Shown here: positions 12,026 to 34,946 of the stretch, piece by piece
Numbering within the stretch: the first letter of the stretch is position 1
How the letters are laid out: every line of letters begins with the position of its first letter
From: Dehalococcoidia bacterium
GTDB lineage: Bacteria > Chloroflexota > Dehalococcoidia > Bin125
Reading direction: 5' to 3'
Length of the DNA: 64,000 nucleotides
Assembly (NCBI GenBank): GCA_965232875.1
Contig: OZ247431.1
Coordinates: 2,102,828 to 2,166,827 of the forward strand
The notes under the pieces: model-generated
Seen by the model: the letters and a program-made list of their open reading frames with translations, nothing else
The model's database searches: none
Told to the model about the DNA's origin: nothing
Made by a program: the position numbers and the translations under genes

Positions 12026-13225
12026 ATGAAAGGACCTGGAACCATGAAATGGCCAAGTTTGAAGGGCCGCCGACTTGCCAGTGCACTGCTTTTTGCAGGA
12101 GCAGCACTCATCGCCGGCGCTGTCATCGGCGCTTGTACGTCTGATGAAGATCAGCAGCAGGCGCAGGCGGGCGACCAACAACAGGTGATGGAACAGCAGC
12201 AACAACAGGACCAGCCGCAGGCCCAGGTTTCCGGCGATCCTCGCGGCAACACGGTGCAGCTAGTCAAGGACCGTGGGATTCTCAAGTGCGGCGTCAAGCA
12301 GACGCAGCCACTGTTCGGTTTCCGCGAGCCAGATGGCGCCGTGGTTGGCTTTGATGTCGACTTCTGTAAGGCCATTGCTGAGGCCCTGGAGGTTGACCTC
12401 GAGCTGATCGACGCCTCCGACGCCTCGACACGATTCGAGTTGCTGGCTAACGGGAACATTGACGTCCTGATCCGGACGACCACCATCACCGCGTCGCGCG
12501 ACCGTGAACTCGGTGTCGACTTCGCGCAGACCACGTTCTACACCGGTCAGGGCTTCGCGGTGCACGCCGGTTCGGGCATCAACTCGACCGCCGACATGGG
12601 TGGTTCAACCATCTGCGTCCAGTCCGGTACCACGACCGAGCAGAACCTGGCCGACCACTTCACCGACCTCGGCCTGAGTTACACGCCGCTGGGCGGTTCC
12701 GACCAGGAAACGCAGGACGCGTTCCTCGCCGGTCGCTGTGACGTGTGGACTGCTGACCAGTCCAACCTCGCATCCCGCATCGGCGTCCTTGAGAACGCCA
12801 GCGACTTCGTCATTCTTGGTGAGCTGATCTCCAAGGAGCCGTTGGCTCCTGGCGTCCGCGACTACGACTCCGAGTTCAAAGACGTGGTCAACTGGGTCGT
12901 GCACGGCCTGATCGCTGCTGAGGAAATGGGCATCAACCAGGCCAACGTGGCCGCGATGGCCTCGAACCCGCCGAACACCGCCATCGCGCGTCTGTTGGGC
13001 GTTCCCTTCGAGGGCGGCGAAGTCTCGACCCTTGGCTTCGACTCAGTTGGTGCGCAGTTCATCCAGCGTGCGATCATCGCAGTCGGCAACTACGGCGAAA
13101 TCTACGAGAACAACGTCGGTGACGCGGTTCCGCGAGCCTGCTCGCTGAACGCCCTGGCATCTGAGGACAAGAGCAACTGTCCGCCAGGTACCGGTGGTAT
13201 CCAGTACGCACTGCCGTACCGCTAA
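12026..13225 (+). CDS. aapJ: Amino-acid ABC transporter substrate-binding lipoprotein (general L-amino-acid type)
   Basis: 399-aa ORF. A signal peptide and lipobox (AVIGAC) are followed by a Q-rich tether (DEDQQQAQAGDQQQVMEQQQQQDQPQAQ). The type-II periplasmic binding fold then begins (ILKCGVKQTQPLFGFREPDG...). Confidence 0.85.
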   Translation: MKGPGTMKWPSLKGRRLASALLFAGAALIAGAVIGACTSDEDQQQAQAGDQQQVMEQQQQQDQPQAQVSGDPRGNTVQLVKDRGILKCGVKQTQPLFGFREPDGAVVGFDVDFCKAIAEALEVDLELIDASDASTRFELLANGNIDVLIRTTTITASRDRELGVDFAQTTFYTGQGFAVHAGSGINSTADMGGSTICVQSGTTTEQNLADHFTDLGLSYTPLGGSDQETQDAFLAGRCDVWTADQSNLASRIGVLENASDFVILGELISKEPLAPGVRDYDSEFKDVVNWVVHGLIAAEEMGINQANVAAMASNPPNTAIARLLGVPFEGGEVSTLGFDSVGAQFIQRAIIAVGNYGEIYENNVGDAVPRACSLNALASEDKSNCPPGTGGIQYALPYR

Positions 13226-15834: not shown

Positions 15835-16131
15835 TCAGTCGGCGACCTCGGCCGCGTCGGTGTGCTCCTCCGGTTCCAAAAGGGGGTATTCTGGCTCAAT
15901 CCACTGGATGTCTTCTGGCACCTCAACATCGACGACAGCGGCTCCTACGGCTGACGGAATCTCAACTGGGTCGCCGTCAGAGACCATAAACTCAATGTGG
16001 TATTGGATTGCCTCTCGAATGAGTTCCTCTGTCTCCTCAAGTGTGTCGGCGAGCGCTACGCAGCCTGGAAGATCGGGGACGTATGCGCCGTAGTTGTTCG
16101 GAGCCTTCTCAAATATGACCACATACTTCAT
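15835..16131 (-). CDS. hicB: HicB-family antitoxin
   Basis: 98-aa ORF. MKYVVIFEKAPNNYGAYVPDLPGCVALADTLEETEELIREAI is the HicB N-terminal (UPF0150) pattern. It overlaps hicA by 4 nt. Confidence 0.85.
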   Translation of the reverse strand: MKYVVIFEKAPNNYGAYVPDLPGCVALADTLEETEELIREAIQYHIEFMVSDGDPVEIPSAVGAAVVDVEVPEDIQWIEPEYPLLEPEEHTDAAEVAD

Positions 16132-16367
16132 CTATTCGCCTTCCAGCTCAATCCTGCTTGGTTGAGAATACCTCGAAAGGTGCCGATCGGCAGGTCCTTG
16201 GACGCAGGCCCTGCAACGGTCACTTTGCCGAGCTTGGTTGGGTGCTTGAAGTGCCGATGGCTTCCTCGCTGGTACACGAAGTACCAACCATCGGCTTCGA
16301 CGATCTTGATGACTTGTCTGACTTTTGGCATCGAAGATGGAGCGTAGCCGAAGAATTGGAGTTTCAC
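16128..16367 (-). CDS. hicA: HicA-family mRNA-interferase toxin
   Basis: 79-aa ORF. VRQVIKIVEADGWYFVYQRGSHRHFKHPTKLGKVTVAGPASKDLPIGTFRGILNQAGL is the YcfA/HicA pattern. Confidence 0.85.
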   Translation of the reverse strand: MKLQFFGYAPSSMPKVRQVIKIVEADGWYFVYQRGSHRHFKHPTKLGKVTVAGPASKDLPIGTFRGILNQAGLSWKANR

Positions 16368-28558: not shown

Positions 28559-28645
28559 GCCGAGGTGGCGGAATGGTAGACGCGATGGTCTCAAAAACCA
28601 TTGGGCGTAAAGCCCGTGCCGGTTCGAGTCCGGCCCTCGGTACCA
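28559..28645 (+). tRNA. tRNA-Leu (anticodon CAA)
   Basis: GCCGAGGTGGCGGAATGGTAGACGCGATGGTCTCAAAAACCATTGGGCGTAAAGCCCGTGCCGGTTCGAGTCCGGCCCTCGGTACCA. It has a 7-bp acceptor stem (G1-U72), anticodon loop CTCAAAA, a long variable arm, T-loop TTCGAGT and an encoded CCA. Confidence 0.85.
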
Positions 28646-28650
28646 GAGAT

Positions 28651-28724
28651 TGCCGAGTAGTGTAACGGTAGCACTAGGGACTTTGGATCCCTCAGTTCAG
28701 GTTCGAATCCTGGCTCGGCAGCCA
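28651..28724 (+). tRNA. tRNA-Gln (anticodon UUG)
   Basis: TGCCGAGTAGTGTAACGGTAGCACTAGGGACTTTGGATCCCTCAGTTCAGGTTCGAATCCTGGCTCGGCAGCCA. It has U1-A72, discriminator G, anticodon loop CTTTGGA and an encoded CCA. Confidence 0.85.
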
Positions 28725-28759: not shown

Positions 28760-30484
28760 GTGATGATGGTGATAACACTTCCGCAGGATCCAGCTAGGCT
28801 AATCCTCAAGAACATATCCTTCCGTCTCCGGCCTCTCTTGACTGGCAACGAATTCGTGACCTACTGCAAGGCACGGAATCTGAACATAGATCGTGAACGA
28901 CTTCTGCGCCTCGAGAGACAGAGGCTCTTCATGCCCTTGGCCCGAGTATCGAGGCCCTACAAGGGCACGGGATCCATTTTCATCAGCAACGAGACGGCGG
29001 ATGCTTCACATTGGGAGGAGTTCGTTGTCGAGACCTATGCGGACGATGCCGATTACCCTGTTCTAAGCATTGAAGACTCAGGGAATGTGCCCTTCTACTC
29101 AGCGTTTCAGCTCTGGGATCTGGACGAGGTTCTCAGCTCTCTTAACTACAATATCGAACTCGATGCTGTCGCCGAGGGCGAGGGGCCTACGGACGGCGTG
29201 TCGATCGAGTTGCATACTGCGAGGGAACGACTTCGATATGCAGCCTCATGGCGGTCGGAGACGCGAAAAGCTGCAGCCGTGCTGGCGCAGTATGTGACCA
29301 ATGCCTACATGCCGAAAGCTCTGAGCAATAGGCGGACCGTTTCGATTACGAGATCTAACAGCTACGGAGGTGCGCTATCCTTCGAAAGTCGGAATTGGGA
29401 TTGGCACGAGTTCAAGCAGAAGTGGAATCCTAGTTCTGTGACATCCCACTTTCAACTAGACAAGAGCACGCTCGAAGGGATTTACCGCCTTTTGCTTATG
29501 TCGATTCAAGACTGCGATCCGCTCTATGAATGGTCAAACTTTGTTCAATTCGTATCGCATCACAAGAGGGCCCAGCTGAGGGGAGACGCACTTCGAGCAG
29601 ACCTGTACAAGCAAATGGCGTTGCTGATGAAGTCTCTCTATGAGGATCTTTACGAAGATCAGGTGGAGTCCGTCGAACGAGCGCTTGGGATTCGGGCCGA
29701 AACCATGCCTGAACCGGTAGTTCAGAAGGATCCTCGACGGCATCTTGAGTTCGTGGTCAATCAGTATGAAGTGAATCCGCAGCCCAAAGTGGTGTTAATC
29801 TTGGAAGGAGAGAGCGAATCGACGTTCGTGGAGAAGTTGTGCCCGGCCCTCCTTGGCTATGGACTAGGCACGGCTGGAATCGAGATAGTAAATGTGAAAG
29901 GAGTCGGCAATGCCACGGGAAACAGGCAGCACGATAGGTACGGGGCCATTCTTAGGCTTGTTGATTATCTGCATGACCATCAGGTAGTTGTCTTTGTCGT
30001 GCTCGATCGCGAGGGTGCAGCATCAAAGCTGAAGGAGGCAGCGAAGAAACGAAAGCCCTTGTCTGGTCTGAGGAAGAAGGTGATTCCGTCGGAGCGAGTC
30101 ACGGTGTGGAGGAGGAATTTCGAGTTCGACAACTTCAGTGACACGGATATCGCAAGGGCCTTGACTGAGGCCGGTGGCGGTCGCCACACCTTCTCGCGGC
30201 AGGAGGTGGCTGATGTCAGGGAGTCCTGGCCTGATTCTCAGATCGGTAAGGTGTTCTATGCCAGGACGGGCGAGGATTTGAACAAACCGGAGTTCGCGGG
30301 ACTTCTGGCTGACCTTGTAGTAAGCCCAACATCCCGAAAGTGGCCAGAAAACAGGCCAATGGTTCGAATCCTGTTACTGGCATCAGAAGCAGGGCTGGCC
30401 AATAGGCTACCGGTGACAGACAAAGTGCGACGGCAGAATCAGCGCGTATTGGACCGTCCGTATGTGCGGGTACATAAGGGATGA
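28760..30484 (+). CDS. Hypothetical 574-aa protein: unknown N-terminal ~340 aa + C-terminal Toprim-like (OLD/RloB-type) domain
   Basis: A long uninterrupted ORF in low-GC DNA. PKVVLILEGESESTFVEKL supplies the Toprim Glu motif and HQVVVFVVLDREGAAS the second acidic motif, about 60 aa apart. There is no Walker A motif. Confidence 0.6.
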   Translation: MMMVITLPQDPARLILKNISFRLRPLLTGNEFVTYCKARNLNIDRERLLRLERQRLFMPLARVSRPYKGTGSIFISNETADASHWEEFVVETYADDADYPVLSIEDSGNVPFYSAFQLWDLDEVLSSLNYNIELDAVAEGEGPTDGVSIELHTARERLRYAASWRSETRKAAAVLAQYVTNAYMPKALSNRRTVSITRSNSYGGALSFESRNWDWHEFKQKWNPSSVTSHFQLDKSTLEGIYRLLLMSIQDCDPLYEWSNFVQFVSHHKRAQLRGDALRADLYKQMALLMKSLYEDLYEDQVESVERALGIRAETMPEPVVQKDPRRHLEFVVNQYEVNPQPKVVLILEGESESTFVEKLCPALLGYGLGTAGIEIVNVKGVGNATGNRQHDRYGAILRLVDYLHDHQVVVFVVLDREGAASKLKEAAKKRKPLSGLRKKVIPSERVTVWRRNFEFDNFSDTDIARALTEAGGGRHTFSRQEVADVRESWPDSQIGKVFYARTGEDLNKPEFAGLLADLVVSPTSRKWPENRPMVRILLLASEAGLANRLPVTDKVRRQNQRVLDRPYVRVHKG

Positions 30485-30492
30485 CCTATGGT

Positions 30493-30540
30493 TGCCCGGG
30501 CAGGGACTTGAACCAGCAAAACTAGCGGTCAACAGCCGCC
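30493..30540 (-). repeat. tRNA-Asn 3'-half-derived direct repeat, copy c (most diverged)
   Basis: tgcccgggcagggacttgaaccagcaaaactagcggtcaacagccgcc aligns with the tRNA sequence tgcccgggcaggacttgaacccgcaacctagcggttaacagccgcc. Confidence 0.7.
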
Positions 30541-30752
30541 ACCTGAGGAGCAACCAACTCGCAAGCTGGGACTGGTGTCGGATGTCCGAACTCCTTCGCC
30601 GTATCGATCCAGGGAGATATCGCAACCTGCGCTTCGCGGAGCGCCTCTTCGTAGGTGTCGCCGAGAGCCGAACAGCCGGGAAGTTCAGGAACGGCAGCTA
30701 CGTACATACGGTCTTCGTCGCTCCAGAAGATCGTGATCGCGTACTTGTGCAT
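30522..30752 (-). CDS. HicB-family antitoxin (short, no DNA-binding domain), paralog 3
   Basis: MHKYAITIFWSDEDRMYVAAVPELPGCSALGDTYEEALREAQVAISPWIDTAKEFGHPTPVP. The last 6 codons and the stop lie inside repeat copy c. Confidence 0.8.
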   Translation of the reverse strand: MHKYAITIFWSDEDRMYVAAVPELPGCSALGDTYEEALREAQVAISPWIDTAKEFGHPTPVPACELVAPQVAAVDR

Positions 30753-30866
30753 CGGTTGTAGGAGTGCCTCAACAGTGGCAGCGCTGCTAAGTGCCGAGTG
30801 AATCGAGAAGACGTGGCAGACGGCCGGATCGATAAACGGGGCTTACCTTCGAGAGCGGCCGCACTT

Positions 30867-31082
30867 TCAATTGCTCAGCGCAACAAGTTCACCGGCGGGC
30901 TGCGGAATCGGCCGGCCGATCCTCTCGGCGCCTTCGAGCCAGTAGCCAATGGCGGCCTGAGCCTGAGCGAGCGCCTCTTCGTGGCTGTCCTCATGCGCCA
31001 TACAGCCCGGCAACTCAGGAATATCCGCCACGAACACGCCGTCCTCATCGCTCCAGTAGATGGTGATTTGGTACTTGTGCAT
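30867..31082 (-). CDS. HicB-family antitoxin (short), paralog 2
   Basis: MHKYQITIYWSDEDGVFVADIPELPGCMAHEDSHEEALAQAQAAIGYWLEGAERIGRPIPQP. Confidence 0.8.
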   Translation of the reverse strand: MHKYQITIYWSDEDGVFVADIPELPGCMAHEDSHEEALAQAQAAIGYWLEGAERIGRPIPQPAGELVALSN

Positions 31083-31104
31083 GGTGGGTCGGATTCGGCG
31101 ATGA

Positions 31105-31155
31105 TGGCTGCCCGGGCAGGACTTGAACCCGCAACCTAGCGGTCAACAGCCACCC
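31105..31155 (-). repeat. tRNA-Asn 3'-half-derived direct repeat, copy b
   Basis: tggctgcccgggcaggacttgaacccgcaacctagcggtcaacagccaccc includes the CCA end. It shares the gttaac-to-gtcaac change with copy c. Confidence 0.8.
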
Positions 31156-31367
31156 GCAGGAGCCGCCTCGAACTCACATGTTGGCGCAGGAATCGGATCT
31201 CCGAATTCCCTGGCGGTGTCGATCCAGAGAGCCATGGCGACCTGTGCTTCCCGAAGGGCTTCTTCGTAGGTGTCGCCGAGGGCCGAACAGCCGGGAAGCT
31301 CAGGGACGGCAGCCACGTACATACCGTCTTCGTTGCTCCAGAAGATGTTGATCTGATACTGCAGCAT
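31143..31367 (-). CDS. hicB: HicB-family antitoxin (short), paralog 1, partner of HicA
   Basis: The ATG at 31367 is preceded by GAGGAG. The product is MLQYQINIFWSNEDGMYVAAVPELPGCSALGDTYEEALREAQVAMALWIDTAREFGDPIPAP. The stop TGA lies in the anticodon-loop part of repeat copy b. Confidence 0.8.
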   Translation of the reverse strand: MLQYQINIFWSNEDGMYVAAVPELPGCSALGDTYEEALREAQVAMALWIDTAREFGDPIPAPTCEFEAAPAGGC

Positions 31368-31378
31368 AAGTCGGCTCC

Positions 31379-31630
31379 TCAAACGTCTCTCAGGTCGTAC
31401 TTTAGCAGTGTCTTGCGAAGCTCTCGGAGTTGGTACGGTTTCGCGTCGGCTCCGATCGGCTGTAGGTTCACCTTGTCTACGACGCCAGCCATTCTGTAGG
31501 AGTGGTGACTGCCACGAATACGCTCTACAAAGCCCATTCTACTGAGAAGCGAACGGACCTCGCTGAATGGAATATTGGCGAGATGCTTACCGTCGAGAAT
31601 GCGGTTGAGCAGTCGCTGGTGGCGATTCAG
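31379..31630 (-). CDS. hicA: HicA-family toxin (start codon uncertain)
   Basis: ...LNRHQRLLNRILDGKHLANIPFSEVRSLLSRMGFVERIRGSHHSYRMAGVVDKVNLQPIGADAKPYQLRELRKTLLKYDL fits the HicA pattern as I recall it. There is no ATG or GTG between the tRNA and the conserved N-terminus. I set the 5' end at the CTG at 31630. The frame stays open to a TTG at 31690 inside tRNA-Asn. Confidence 0.6.
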   Translation of the reverse strand: MNRHQRLLNRILDGKHLANIPFSEVRSLLSRMGFVERIRGSHHSYRMAGVVDKVNLQPIGADAKPYQLRELRKTLLKYDLRDV

Positions 31631-31660
31631 AGCGGATCTCCATCCTGCGGGGTGACTTGA

Positions 31661-31736
31661 TGGCTGCCCGGGCAGGACTTGAACCCGCAACCTAGCGGTT
31701 AACAGCCGCCCGCTCTACCAATTGAGCTACCGGGCA
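31661..31736 (-). tRNA. tRNA-Asn (anticodon GUU)
   Basis: The reverse complement is TGCCCGGTAGCTCAATTGGTAGAGCGGGCGGCTGTTAACCGCTAGGTTGCGGGTTCAAGTCCTGCCCGGGCAGCCA. It has U1-A72, discriminator G, anticodon loop CTGTTAA and an encoded CCA. Confidence 0.85.
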
Positions 31737-34689: not shown

Positions 34690-34892
34690 GTCTCCGCTTT
34701 ACGCTGGACCTCCAAAAGAACTCCCCTTCTCCCCCCTTGCGGGGGAGATGCCGAAGGCAGAGGGGGGCGCTGTTCGGGAGCCCTATCTAGTCATCATCCG
34801 CCGCCCCCCCTCTGTCACTCCGTGACATCTCCCCCCGCAAGGGGGGGAGAGCGAATTCGGAAGTTCTTCAGAGGTCTCCGTAAAGCGGGGAC
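34690..34892. repeat. Family A palindromic MITE-like element, copy 2 (about 200-bp hairpin)
   Basis: The core is as in copy 1. The palindrome extends outward: tctccgctttacg...aaaagaac pairs with gttcttc...cgtaaagcgggga. Confidence 0.75.
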
Positions 34893-34946
34893 TGGGTGAT
34901 TCAACATCACCGACGCCAAGGACGAGGCTGCCTCTACACTCCTGCT

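What the first reader, a model, noticed from the sequence alone, without database searches (positions are those of the whole stretch)
30493..31736. Three direct copies of the 3' half of tRNA-Asn delimit 0.55-0.6 kb HicA/HicB modules, with no integrase
tRNA-Asn (31661-31736, minus strand) is followed by HicA and HicB1. Next comes a 51-nt copy of the tRNA 3' half including CCA (31105-31155). HicB2 and HicB3 follow, then a third, more diverged copy (30493-30540).

Both extra copies share the same change relative to the tRNA (plus-strand ggttaacagcc becomes ggtcaacagcc, an anticodon-loop A-to-G change). They therefore derive from each other or from an element-borne att copy, not independently from the resident tRNA.

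HicB1 and HicB3 are near-identical over long stretches (VAAVPELPGCSALGDTYEEALREAQVA). Each reads through into the tRNA-derived repeat and takes its last codons and stop from it, in two different frames: TGA in the anticodon loop for HicB1 and TAG in ctagcgg for HicB3.

The arrangement looks like serial site-specific insertion or duplication of tiny cassettes at a tRNA 3' end. No recombinase is present anywhere in the window. Two HicB genes have no toxin partner.
Basis: seen in the sequence. Interest (0 to 1): 0.7.

Follow-up and report, generated by a model that had tools for sequence, protein, structure and literature searches.

The report
tRNA-Asn-linked tandem hicB antitoxin array
Behind a tRNA-Asn gene of an uncultured Dehalococcoidia bacterium sits an old, inherited tandem array of small HicB antitoxin genes, each fused to a leftover tRNA half; ordinary homologous recombination reshuffles it, and nothing suggests a new kind of mobile cassette.

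Summary
An intact tRNA-Asn lies at 31661-31736 (-). Two direct copies of its positions 24-76 follow: one at 31105-31157 (51/53 identical) and a decayed one at about 30490-30541. They delimit hicA-hicB1 and hicB2-hicB3. HicB1 and HicB3 take their stop codons from the tRNA remnants. No recombinase family was detected among the window's large ORFs.

The interpretation as serial site-specific cassette insertion is not supported. In 21 related Dehalococcoidia loci, the gap between convergent tRNA-Asn and tRNA-Gln varies from 198 to about 2970 bp. It carries 0-3 hicB genes plus changing defence-like cargo, and none of the loci scanned showed an integrase. Every close HicB1/3 homologue examined sits at this same locus.

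The hicB::tRNA(24-76) junction appears to have a single origin. Two relatives instead keep a full-length, decaying second tRNA-Asn. A relative with about 95% identical flanks has a positionally equivalent three-copy array. The window's HicB1 and HicB3 are mosaics with breakpoints inside the coding sequence. All hic genes are under purifying selection (dN/dS 0.06-0.2), while the tRNA remnants decay.

Best reading: an old tandem duplication, remodelled by unequal crossing-over and gene conversion, at a tRNA-anchored defence hotspot. This is an unusual variant of a known kind, of moderate to low interest.

The parts
31661..31736 (-). Intact tRNA-Asn (GTT). It heads the array, and its 3' end faces the hic genes.
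   Evidence: ARAGORN; Rfam tRNA at 68.6 bits; 97-100% identical in all relatives.
31379..31630 (-). hicA toxin gene (83 codons). It has a conserved non-ATG (CTG) start 7 nt after a GGAG at 31638-31641. Its stop overlaps the ribosome-binding site of hicB1.
   Evidence: Pfam HicA_toxin E = 2.2e-5. The start position is NTG in 8/8 relatives. dN/dS is 0.10-0.21. The coding sequence resembles L021/L006; by eye, the leader looks closer to L012 (not measured).
31143..31367 (-). hicB1, a short HicB with the N-terminal domain only. Its last 5 codons and TGA stop come from tRNA remnant c2. The gene is a mosaic.
   Evidence: Pfam HicB_lk_antitox 9e-11. The leader and first ~10 codons are 80-90% like L021/L020. 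The body is 93-97% like L022_c/L004_b.
31105..31157 (-). c2, a copy of tRNA-Asn positions 24-76 including CCA, with C29T and A37G.
   Evidence: The tRNA covariance model does not detect it.
31083..31104 (-). 22-nt leader (tcatcgccgaatccgacccacc) between c2 and hicB2. The same leader follows the intact tRNA in L022/L023, and a diverged version follows L004's remnant, so the repeat unit extends past the tRNA end.
30867..31082 (-). hicB2, an orphan antitoxin gene and the most widely conserved member of the array.
   Evidence: Pfam 2.5e-9. It is 82-94% identical in aa in L001, L002, L004, L005, L009, L010, L012 and L022. dN/dS is 0.06-0.18.
30522..30752 (-). hicB3, an orphan antitoxin gene. Its tail and TAG stop come from remnant c3. 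The gene is a mosaic.
   Evidence: Pfam 6e-11. The 5' half matches L022_c (94-97%), while the 3' half plus c3 match the L022_a type.
30490..30541 (-). c3, a decayed copy of tRNA-Asn positions ~24-76 with 3 substitutions and 2 one-base insertions in its last 36 nt. It shares G37 with c2.
28760..30484 (+). Variable cargo of the hotspot: a 574-aa ORF with a weak OLD-like TOPRIM match and low G+C (50-55% against 62-66% in the flanks). It fills the space between c3 and tRNA-Gln.
   Evidence: Relatives carry different cargo at this position.
28559..28724 (+). tRNA-Leu and tRNA-Gln. They converge on tRNA-Asn and form the conserved far boundary of the hotspot.

Best explanation
The region is an old, vertically inherited tandem array of short hicB antitoxin genes, one with a hicA partner. 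It lies directly downstream of tRNA-Asn and in the same orientation. It sits inside a gene-exchange hotspot bounded by convergent tRNA-Asn and tRNA-Gln/Leu.

**Origin of the tRNA halves (inferred).** They are probably remnants of a duplicated second tRNA-Asn gene. One deletion of about 130 nt fused the end of a hicB gene to tRNA position 24.

**Spread of the unit (shown).** The fused unit (tRNA 3' half, 22-nt leader, hicB) was then duplicated. It has been reshuffled ever since by unequal crossing-over and gene conversion, both between the repeats and between the hicB paralogues. Homologous replacement with DNA from related strains probably adds to this, with the invariant tRNA sequences serving as anchors.

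**Recombinase.** None is needed, and none was found.

**Function (partly inferred).** Purifying selection maintains the hic genes. They are probably transcribed with tRNA-Asn, and they probably act as antitoxin or anti-addiction genes in a defence islet. The tRNA remnants themselves are decaying, and they supply stop codons only by accident.
For: **Variation among relatives**
- The tRNA-Asn to tRNA-Gln interval is 198-2970 bp in 13 genomes and carries 0-3 hicB genes.
- The closest relatives differ. L001/L037 have one truncated hicB2. L022/L023 have three hicB and two remnants.

**Fixed location**
- Close HicB homologues (70% identity or more) were at this same RNase D / tRNA-Asn / CNNM locus in every contig examined.

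**Origin of the remnants**
- L005 and L006 have full-length second tRNA-Asn copies about 105 nt after a hicB ending in ...APST*.
- In L012 the copy is cut to positions ~26-70.
- The window, L004, L008, L020 and L022 share one identical hicB::tRNA24 junction.

**Homologous recombination**
- The window array aligns colinearly over 869 nt with the L022 array. The middle (leader, hicB2, the hicB2-hicB3 spacer) is 92-95% identical, like the flanks. The outer hicB 3' halves with their remnants are exchanged, with breakpoints inside the coding sequence.
- HicB1 is a chimera of an L021/L020-type 5' end and an L022_c/L004_b-type body.

**Selection**
- dN/dS is 0.06-0.2 in ortholog comparisons of HicA and HicB1-3 (up to 0.4 against the L004_b/L022_c paralogues).
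- The remnants carry indels and uncompensated stem changes.

**No recombinase or element detected**
- No recombinase family was found in the window.
- No viral contig carries the tRNA-Asn 3' 32-mer.
- No promoter-like site lies between the tRNA and the hic genes.
Against: - The direction of change (full tRNA copy to fused half) is inferred from a few lineages. The similarity between the upstream regions of L006's two tRNA copies is only marginal: 8 of 500 shuffles reach the score.
- The very first duplication of the tRNA could itself have been made by an integrase long ago.
- Only 21-kb pieces of the relatives' genomes could be read, so a tRNA-Asn-specific integrase encoded elsewhere cannot be excluded.
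- Copy c2 is 100% identical to the tRNA from position 38 to the end. Both a homologous and a site-specific crossover at that point would give this result.
- Co-transcription with the tRNA and antitoxin function are untested.
Confidence: 0.62

Rival explanations
1. CIME-like accretion. Each module would be the decayed remnant of a tRNA-Asn-targeting integrative element (or a tiny cis-mobilizable element) inserted by a tyrosine integrase encoded elsewhere. The tRNA halves would be attR sites. New elements would enter at the intact tRNA and push older ones outwards.
For: - The direct repeats consist of the tRNA 3' part including CCA, with the intact tRNA at one end and increasing decay with distance.
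- The first module of 556 bp is bounded exactly by the repeats. The region from c2 onwards aligns with L004 and L001 starting at position 24 of their intact tRNA.
- Integrase-less tandem islands bounded by repeats of a small-RNA gene are described in Dehalococcoides at ssrA, and as CIMEs in streptococci (PMC3146451, PMC5704250).
Against: - None of the 21 related loci shows an integrase at this site. None has more than 3 kb between the tRNAs.
- Every close homologue examined is at this one locus.
- The left boundary at position 24 is one inherited junction, not a recurrent one.
- L005 and L006 carry full tRNA copies.
- Breakpoints lie inside hicB.
- The remnants decay, including in the anticodon and T arms.
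- The 3' 32-mer of the tRNA is absent from 2.9 million viral contigs.
Confidence: 0.2
2. The tRNA halves are retained for a function in RNA. In a tRNA-Asn-hic polycistronic transcript they would act as processing or stabilising signals or as terminators (tRNA punctuation). Selection would then keep one after each hicB.
For: - The genes follow the tRNA closely (30 nt before hicA here; 22-24 nt before hicB in relatives), and no promoter-like site lies between them.
- The 3'-most ~25 nt (T loop to CCA) look like the best-kept part of all remnants (by eye).
- The anticodon stem of c3 followed by GTTTTG scores as terminator-like.
Against: - The remnants lack the 5' acceptor strand, and the tRNA covariance model does not recognise them.
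- Stem changes are not compensated (for example the T stems of L012 and L022_a).
- Several relatives (L002, L009, L021) have lost the remnant while keeping hicB.
- The count of terminator-like sites is below chance expectation.
- Good preservation of the 3' end can be explained by gene conversion from the resident tRNA.
Confidence: 0.08
3. Integron-like capture. The tRNA halves would act as attC-like folded single-strand recombination sites for promoterless cassettes expressed from the tRNA promoter.
For: The units are small (0.3-0.6 kb), lack their own promoters, point the same way and carry toxin-antitoxin-type genes with a structured repeat at the 3' end. Superficially this resembles chromosomal integron arrays.
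Against: - No IntI-like or other recombinase was found in the window or next to the array in any relative.
- The only 'cassette' content is hicB paralogues, plus hicA in the first unit.
- The variable cargo is not flanked by remnants on both sides.
- All the evidence for homologous exchange listed under the best explanation applies here too.
Confidence: 0.03

Closest known systems
Tandem genomic islands and cis-mobilizable elements (CIMEs) bounded by repeats of a tRNA or tmRNA 3' end. Examples are the Dehalococcoides ssrA genomic islands (PMC3146451) and streptococcal CIME/IME accretion (PMC5704250).
   Same: An intact small-RNA gene is followed by direct copies of its 3' part that delimit successive modules. 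Some modules lack any integrase. The organism belongs to the same class (Dehalococcoidia).
   Different: - The modules here are 0.55-0.6 kb and contain only hic genes.
- No integrase-bearing version was seen in the 21 relatives.
- The repeat is 53 nt and is fused in frame to the preceding gene.
- The unit boundary is a single inherited junction.
- Exchange points lie inside genes, which indicates homologous rather than site-specific recombination.
Integrase-free chromosomal hotspots (defence islets) between conserved core genes or tRNAs, turned over by homologous recombination of the flanks.
   Same: The position between RNase D/tRNA-Asn and tRNA-Gln/Leu/CNNM is fixed. The content differs in nearly every relative: OLD-family ATPase-nuclease, DUF3800, DUF5131+PDC-M30A, an AAA_15 ATPase, an ion channel, an IS5. 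No mobility genes are present.
   Different: The hotspot also holds an internal tandem array whose repeat unit includes a tRNA fragment. That fragment provides extra perfectly conserved homology anchors.
HicAB type II toxin-antitoxin systems and orphan short HicB/UPF0150 proteins
   Same: The hicA-hicB order, the overlapping stop and ribosome-binding site, the HicB N-terminal domain and the GSHH motif in HicA all match.
   Different: - The HicB proteins here are 71-76 aa and lack the C-terminal DNA-binding domain.
- Three antitoxin genes accompany one toxin gene.
- The toxin uses a CTG start.
- Two antitoxins end in residues encoded by a tRNA remnant.
Tycheposons of Prochlorococcus: tRNA-associated elements leaving arrays of partial tRNA repeats (bioRxiv 10.1101/2020.12.28.424599). 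The paper appeared in the search and only its abstract was seen; the details come from memory.
   Same: Variable islands lie next to tRNA genes in a streamlined environmental bacterium.
   Different: Tycheposons encode their own integrase or transposase-type enzymes and carry kilobases of cargo. Nothing comparable is present here.

Membership tests
tRNA-targeting integrative element / genomic island | Integrase (tyrosine or serine recombinase) gene inside or next to the element | tested here: not met
   No recombinase Pfam family among about 50 large window ORFs. None of the interval ORFs scanned in relatives is a recombinase, and the intervals are at most 3 kb.
tRNA-targeting integrative element / genomic island | Direct repeats (attL/attR) made of the 3' part of the target tRNA | tested here: met
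   c2 matches tRNA positions 24-76 at 51/53. c3 matches at about 90%.
tRNA-targeting integrative element / genomic island | The same element occurs in other hosts or sites, or occupied and empty sites differ precisely at the repeats | tested here: not met
   Every close HicB homologue examined is at this one locus. Differences from the nearest relatives have breakpoints inside hicB. The one apparent extra repeat (L024) is a 100-N scaffold gap.
Cis-mobilizable element (CIME) | attL and attR sites kept functional and used by a related element's integrase; excision as a circle | not testable with these tools
   This needs PCR or long reads and whole genomes. Indirectly it is unlikely, because the remnants accumulate indels and substitutions.
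Integron cassette array | IntI integrase with attI and a promoter at the head of the array; attC sites at cassette ends | tested here: not met
   No integrase was found (calls above). The repeats derive from a tRNA, and Rfam finds nothing but the tRNA itself.
HicAB type II toxin-antitoxin | HicA toxin domain and HicB N-terminal antitoxin domain encoded side by side | tested here: met
   HicB_lk_antitox E = 2.5e-9 to 6e-11, above its cut-off. HicA_toxin scores 24.9 bits against a cut-off of 27, with the GSHH motif conserved in 8 relatives.
HicAB type II toxin-antitoxin | C-terminal DNA-binding (RHH/HTH) domain in HicB for autoregulation | tested here: not met
   The proteins are 71-76 aa and match only positions 1-59 of the 123-position Pfam model.
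HicAB type II toxin-antitoxin | The toxin cleaves RNA and the antitoxin neutralises it | not testable with these tools
   This requires expression assays.
Tandem gene array evolving by unequal crossing-over / gene conversion | Head-to-tail homologous units, copy-number variation among relatives, and mosaic paralogues with breakpoints inside the units | tested here: met
   Units are in register over 254 nt at 81.5% identity. Relatives carry 0-3 hicB genes. HicB1 and HicB3 are mosaics.

The most novel reading that the evidence does not exclude
The tRNA-Asn 3' halves are still active recombination sites. An unlinked tRNA-Asn-specific integrase, or a passing element's integrase, would move 0.3-0.6 kb promoterless hic units in and out behind the tRNA. 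That would be an integron-like cassette system using a tRNA half as its attachment site and the tRNA promoter for expression.
Probability: 0.05. Interest if true: 0.8.

Novelty: new variant of a known kind. Interest (0 to 1): 0.3.

Why it matters
- **A caution for island finders.** Direct repeats of a tRNA 3' half delimiting gene modules are usually read as integrase footprints. Here comparative evidence points to duplication, a gene-tRNA fusion and homologous recombination. Repeat-based calls of cassette accretion therefore need checking.
- **A documented hotspot.** In an uncultured Dehalococcoidia lineage, a compact hotspot bounded by tRNAs exchanges defence-type genes without any mobility gene.
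- **Orphan antitoxins under selection.** The array of short HicB antitoxins is maintained by selection, which fits an anti-addiction or anti-toxin role. Two of these genes borrowed their stop codons from a dead tRNA.
- **Overall weight.** None of this changes current concepts.

Tried and rejected
- **Exact-sequence look-ups.** Look-ups of HicB1 and HicB3 found nothing on record.
- **Viral contigs.** The tRNA-Asn 3' 32-mer was searched in viral contigs to find a phage or element attP. There were no hits.
- **Metagenome scan.** A scan with RNase D gave only two more syntenic loci, both of the minimal L001 type.
- **False lead.** L024 seemed to show a recent extra 100%-identical tRNA half among near-identical strains. 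It is an artefact of a 100-N scaffold gap.
- **Wider HicB family.** I checked whether the wider 70-aa HicB family is generally linked to tRNAs or integrases. It is not. It sits in restriction-modification, McrBC, Bil or Fic neighbourhoods with no tRNA or integrase among the called genes.
- **Promoter duplication in L006.** I tested whether L006's second tRNA copy also duplicated the promoter region. Support is only marginal.
- **HicA starting in the tRNA.** The long ORF from a TTG inside the tRNA is an artefact of ORF calling. A conserved GGAG followed by an NTG codon marks the real start.
- **Weak Rfam hit.** A group II intron D1-D4 match (E = 0.085) over the tRNA T arm and the hicA leader was dismissed as chance.
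Full report
**1. What is in the window**

ARAGORN and Rfam find one intact tRNA-Asn(GTT) at 31661-31736 on the minus strand. The following features lie downstream on the same strand.

| Feature | Coordinates | Notes |
|---|---|---|
| hicA | 31379-31630 | toxin gene |
| hicB1 | 31143-31367 | stop codon lies in c2 |
| c2 | 31105-31157 | tRNA positions 24-76, 51/53 identical |
| leader | 31083-31104 | 22 nt |
| hicB2 | 30867-31082 | no toxin partner |
| non-coding spacer | about 30753-30866 | 114 nt |
| hicB3 | 30522-30752 | stop codon lies in c3 |
| c3 | about 30490-30541 | decayed copy, one-base indels |

These coordinates rest.

- A 34-mer shared by the tRNA and c2 occurs twice in the window and never in 100 shuffles.
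- Both c2 and c3 have G at tRNA position 37.
- HicB1 ends ...PAGGC-TGA, with the stop in the former anticodon loop.
- HicB3 ends ...VAAVDR-TAG, with the stop in the former variable region.
- The three HicB proteins pass Pfam's HicB_lk_antitox cut-off. HicA falls just below the HicA_toxin cut-off.
- Pfam scans of about 50 of the largest non-overlapping ORFs found no recombinase or transposase family. A dozen of those ORFs had no hit at all.

There is one correction. HicA does not begin inside the tRNA. It begins at a CTG (31628-31630), 7 nt after a GGAG. That position holds CTG in six of the eight aligned sequences, and GTG or TTG in the other two.

**2. Context**

- The organism is an uncultured member of the Dehalococcoidia (Chloroflexota). 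This follows from the RNase D gene next to the tRNA, which found 13 syntenic loci in genome assemblies at 72-97% aa identity.
- tRNA-Asn converges on tRNA-Gln and tRNA-Leu (28559-28724, + strand).
- Between c3 and tRNA-Gln lies a single 574-aa ORF (28760-30484). It has a weak OLD-like TOPRIM match and 50-55% G+C, against 62-66% in the flanks.

**3. The same site in relatives**

The distance from tRNA-Asn to tRNA-Gln ranges from 198 bp (L017) and 230 bp (L001) to about 2970 bp.

The far part of the interval holds different cargo in nearly every genome:

| Cargo | Loci |
|---|---|
| OLD-family ATPase-nuclease | L005 |
| DUF3800 | L003, L006, L009, L011, L021 |
| DUF5131 plus a PDC-M30A-type partner | L007, L022 |
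| AAA_15 ATPase fragment | L020 |
| Ion channel | L002 |
| IS5-type transposase remnant (judged from the ORF sequence by eye; not scanned) | L004 |

The near part holds hic genes in most genomes. Here c is a tRNA remnant and psi marks a frameshifted copy.

| Locus | Arrangement |
|---|---|
| L001 / L037 | tRNA - truncated hicB2 |
| L004 | tRNA - hicB2 - hicB - c - hicB(psi) |
| L022 / L023 | tRNA - hicB - c - hicB2 - hicB - c |
| L020 | tRNA - hicA - hicB - c |
| L021 | tRNA - hicA - hicB |
| L002 | tRNA - hicA - hicB2 - hicB |
| L012 | tRNA - hicA - hicB2 - hicB - c |
| L005 | tRNA - hicA - hicB2 - hicB - full tRNA-Asn |
| L006 | tRNA - hicA - hicB - full tRNA-Asn |
| L003, L007, L011, L017 | no hic genes |

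None of these intervals has room for a typical integrase, and none was detected in the ORFs scanned. Two further metagenome loci are of the L001 type. Copy number therefore varies and empty sites exist. The variation is within one fixed chromosomal site of one lineage.

**4. Are the modules mobile?**

- A search of 5.8 billion proteins found about 37 proteins at 70% identity or more to HicB1.
- Every contig I examined for them, and every genome locus, is this same RNase D / tRNA-Asn / CNNM site.
- More distant 70-aa HicB proteins (about 65% identity) occur in other bacteria inside restriction-modification, McrBC, Bil or Fic neighbourhoods. No tRNA or integrase appears among the genes called there.
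- The tRNA-Asn 3' 32-mer is absent from 2.9 million viral contigs.
- One apparent recent gain of a 100%-identical tRNA half (L024 against L023) is an artefact of a 100-N scaffold gap.

**5. Origin of the tRNA halves**

- In the window, L004, L008, L020 and L022, the HicB1/3-type genes join the tRNA remnant at the same point and with homologous sequence (...GAGTTGG...CCT|GCGGGCGGCTGTT...). The boundary at tRNA position 24 is therefore one inherited junction, not a recurrent recombination point.
- In L005 and L006 the orthologous hicB ends with ...APST-stop. About 105 nt later comes a full-length second tRNA-Asn, which is decaying.
- L012 is nearly identical to L005 in hicB, yet keeps only positions ~26-70 of that copy.
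- The simplest series is: a second tRNA-Asn copy, then a deletion of about 130 nt that fused hicB to position 24, then duplication of the fused unit. This polarity is an inference.
- Similarity between the regions upstream of L006's two tRNA copies would favour a segmental duplication. It is only marginal, with 8 of 500 shuffles reaching the score.
- The repeat unit also extends beyond the tRNA. The 22-nt leader after c2 is the same leader that follows the intact tRNA in L022/L023.

**6. How the array changes**

L022 has flanks 94-95% identical to the window. Its array aligns colinearly with the window's over 869 nt.

- The leader, hicB2 and the hicB2-hicB3 spacer are 92-95% identical, like the flanks.
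- The 3' halves of the first and last hicB, together with their remnants, are exchanged between the two genomes.
- Informative sites show where the switch happens. The window's HicB3 follows L022's third hicB up to about codon 35. After that it follows L022's first hicB.
- HicB1 has a leader and first ~10 codons of the hicA-linked L021/L020 type. Its body is 93-97% identical to the L022_c/L004_b/L002_b type.

Breakpoints inside coding sequence are the signature of homologous recombination or gene conversion among paralogues. They are not the signature of exchange at att sites. Unequal crossing-over between the tRNA and a downstream remnant yields duplications and precise deletions of whole units without any recombinase. 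This accounts for the 0-3 copies seen. The shared three-copy layout of the window and L022/L023 shows that the arrangement is inherited, not a recent accretion in this genome.

**7. Selection and likely function**

- In ortholog comparisons dN/dS is 0.06-0.18 for HicB2, 0.07-0.13 for HicB1 (0.35-0.40 against the L004_b/L022_c paralogues), 0.09-0.13 for HicB3 (0.22 against L004_b) and 0.10-0.21 for HicA. The orphan antitoxin genes are therefore functional.
- The remnants accumulate substitutions, indels and uncompensated stem changes. The tRNA covariance model does not recognise them. They are best seen as decaying pseudogene fragments, occasionally refreshed by conversion from the resident tRNA. 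For example, L008's copy is 100% identical over positions 24-74.
- The tails they add to HicB replace an ancestral ...APST end and differ in reading frame, so they are incidental.
- The hic genes start close behind the tRNA (30 nt before hicA here; 22-24 nt before hicB in relatives) or behind a remnant. No promoter-like site lies between them. I infer co-transcription with tRNA-Asn.
- I also infer a role as antitoxin or anti-addiction genes within a defence-gene hotspot. Neither inference is tested.

**8. Comparison with known systems**

- The layout resembles tandem islands and CIMEs bounded by repeats of a tRNA or tmRNA 3' end. These include the ssrA islands of Dehalococcoides, some of which lack integration modules (PMC3146451, PMC5704250).
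- It fails the defining tests for such elements that could be run here. There is no integrase in any relative. The unit occurs nowhere else. The differences from the nearest relatives do not break at the repeats.
- It meets the criteria for a tandem array evolving by unequal crossing-over and gene conversion, inside an integrase-free hotspot anchored by tRNAs.
- It is an unusual variant: a gene fused to a tRNA remnant and duplicated as a unit, and several orphan HicB genes behind a tRNA. It is not a new kind of system.

**9. Verdict**

- Confidence in the homologous-recombination array model is about 0.6.
- A CIME-like origin, or an integrase acting in trans, keeps about 0.2, mainly for the very first duplication.
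- An RNA-level function of the remnants gets about 0.08. An integron-like system gets about 0.03-0.05.
- Interest is 0.3.

Noticed in passing
window 15835-16367 (-): A second, more canonical hicAB pair. A HicA-like ORF of 79 aa (16128-16367, GSHRHFKHP motif) overlaps a HicB-like ORF of 98 aa (15835-16131...VPDLPGC...). It was identified by eye from the translations. My Pfam run used the wrong strand.
   Followed up: partly
window 31628-31641 (-); L002, L005, L006, L010, L012, L020, L021: hicA appears to use a CTG start codon 7-8 nt after a GGAG. CTG is conserved in 6 of 8 sequences, with GTG or TTG in the others. This may keep toxin translation low.
   Followed up: partly
window 34719-34894: An intergenic segment of about 170 bp matches three separate places in the 21-kb L002 locus and three in L005, at 79-86% identity. 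It looks like a dispersed short repeat, possibly MITE-like, of this lineage.
   Followed up: no
window 28760-30484 (+): The cargo ORF of 574 aa has low G+C and only a weak OLD-like TOPRIM match (E = 1.7e-4, below the cut-off). It has no ATPase domain and no PADLOC hit. L005 carries a full OLD-type ATPase-TOPRIM protein at the same position.
   Followed up: partly
window 30523-30541 (-): The former anticodon stem-loop of remnant c3 is followed by GTTTTGCTGG and is scored as terminator-like. It sits at the end of the hic array. The count of such sites in the region is not above chance.
   Followed up: no
L024 2775-2873: A 100-N scaffold gap with duplicated ends mimics an extra, perfect tRNA-Asn half next to the tRNA. 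Scaffolded metagenome assemblies need this check before repeats are counted.
   Followed up: yes
L004 interval (about 12370-13200); L022 220-1167: Insertion sequences lie in or near the hotspot in relatives. L004 has a frameshifted IS5-type transposase after a pseudo-hicB (identified from its sequence by eye). L022 has an IS110-family gene about 3 kb upstream of tRNA-Asn.
   Followed up: no
L006 12353-12428: The second tRNA-Asn copy in L006 has a compensated D-stem change (C11-G24 to A11-T24) but also a G53A change that breaks the T stem. It may have stayed functional for some time after duplication.
   Followed up: no
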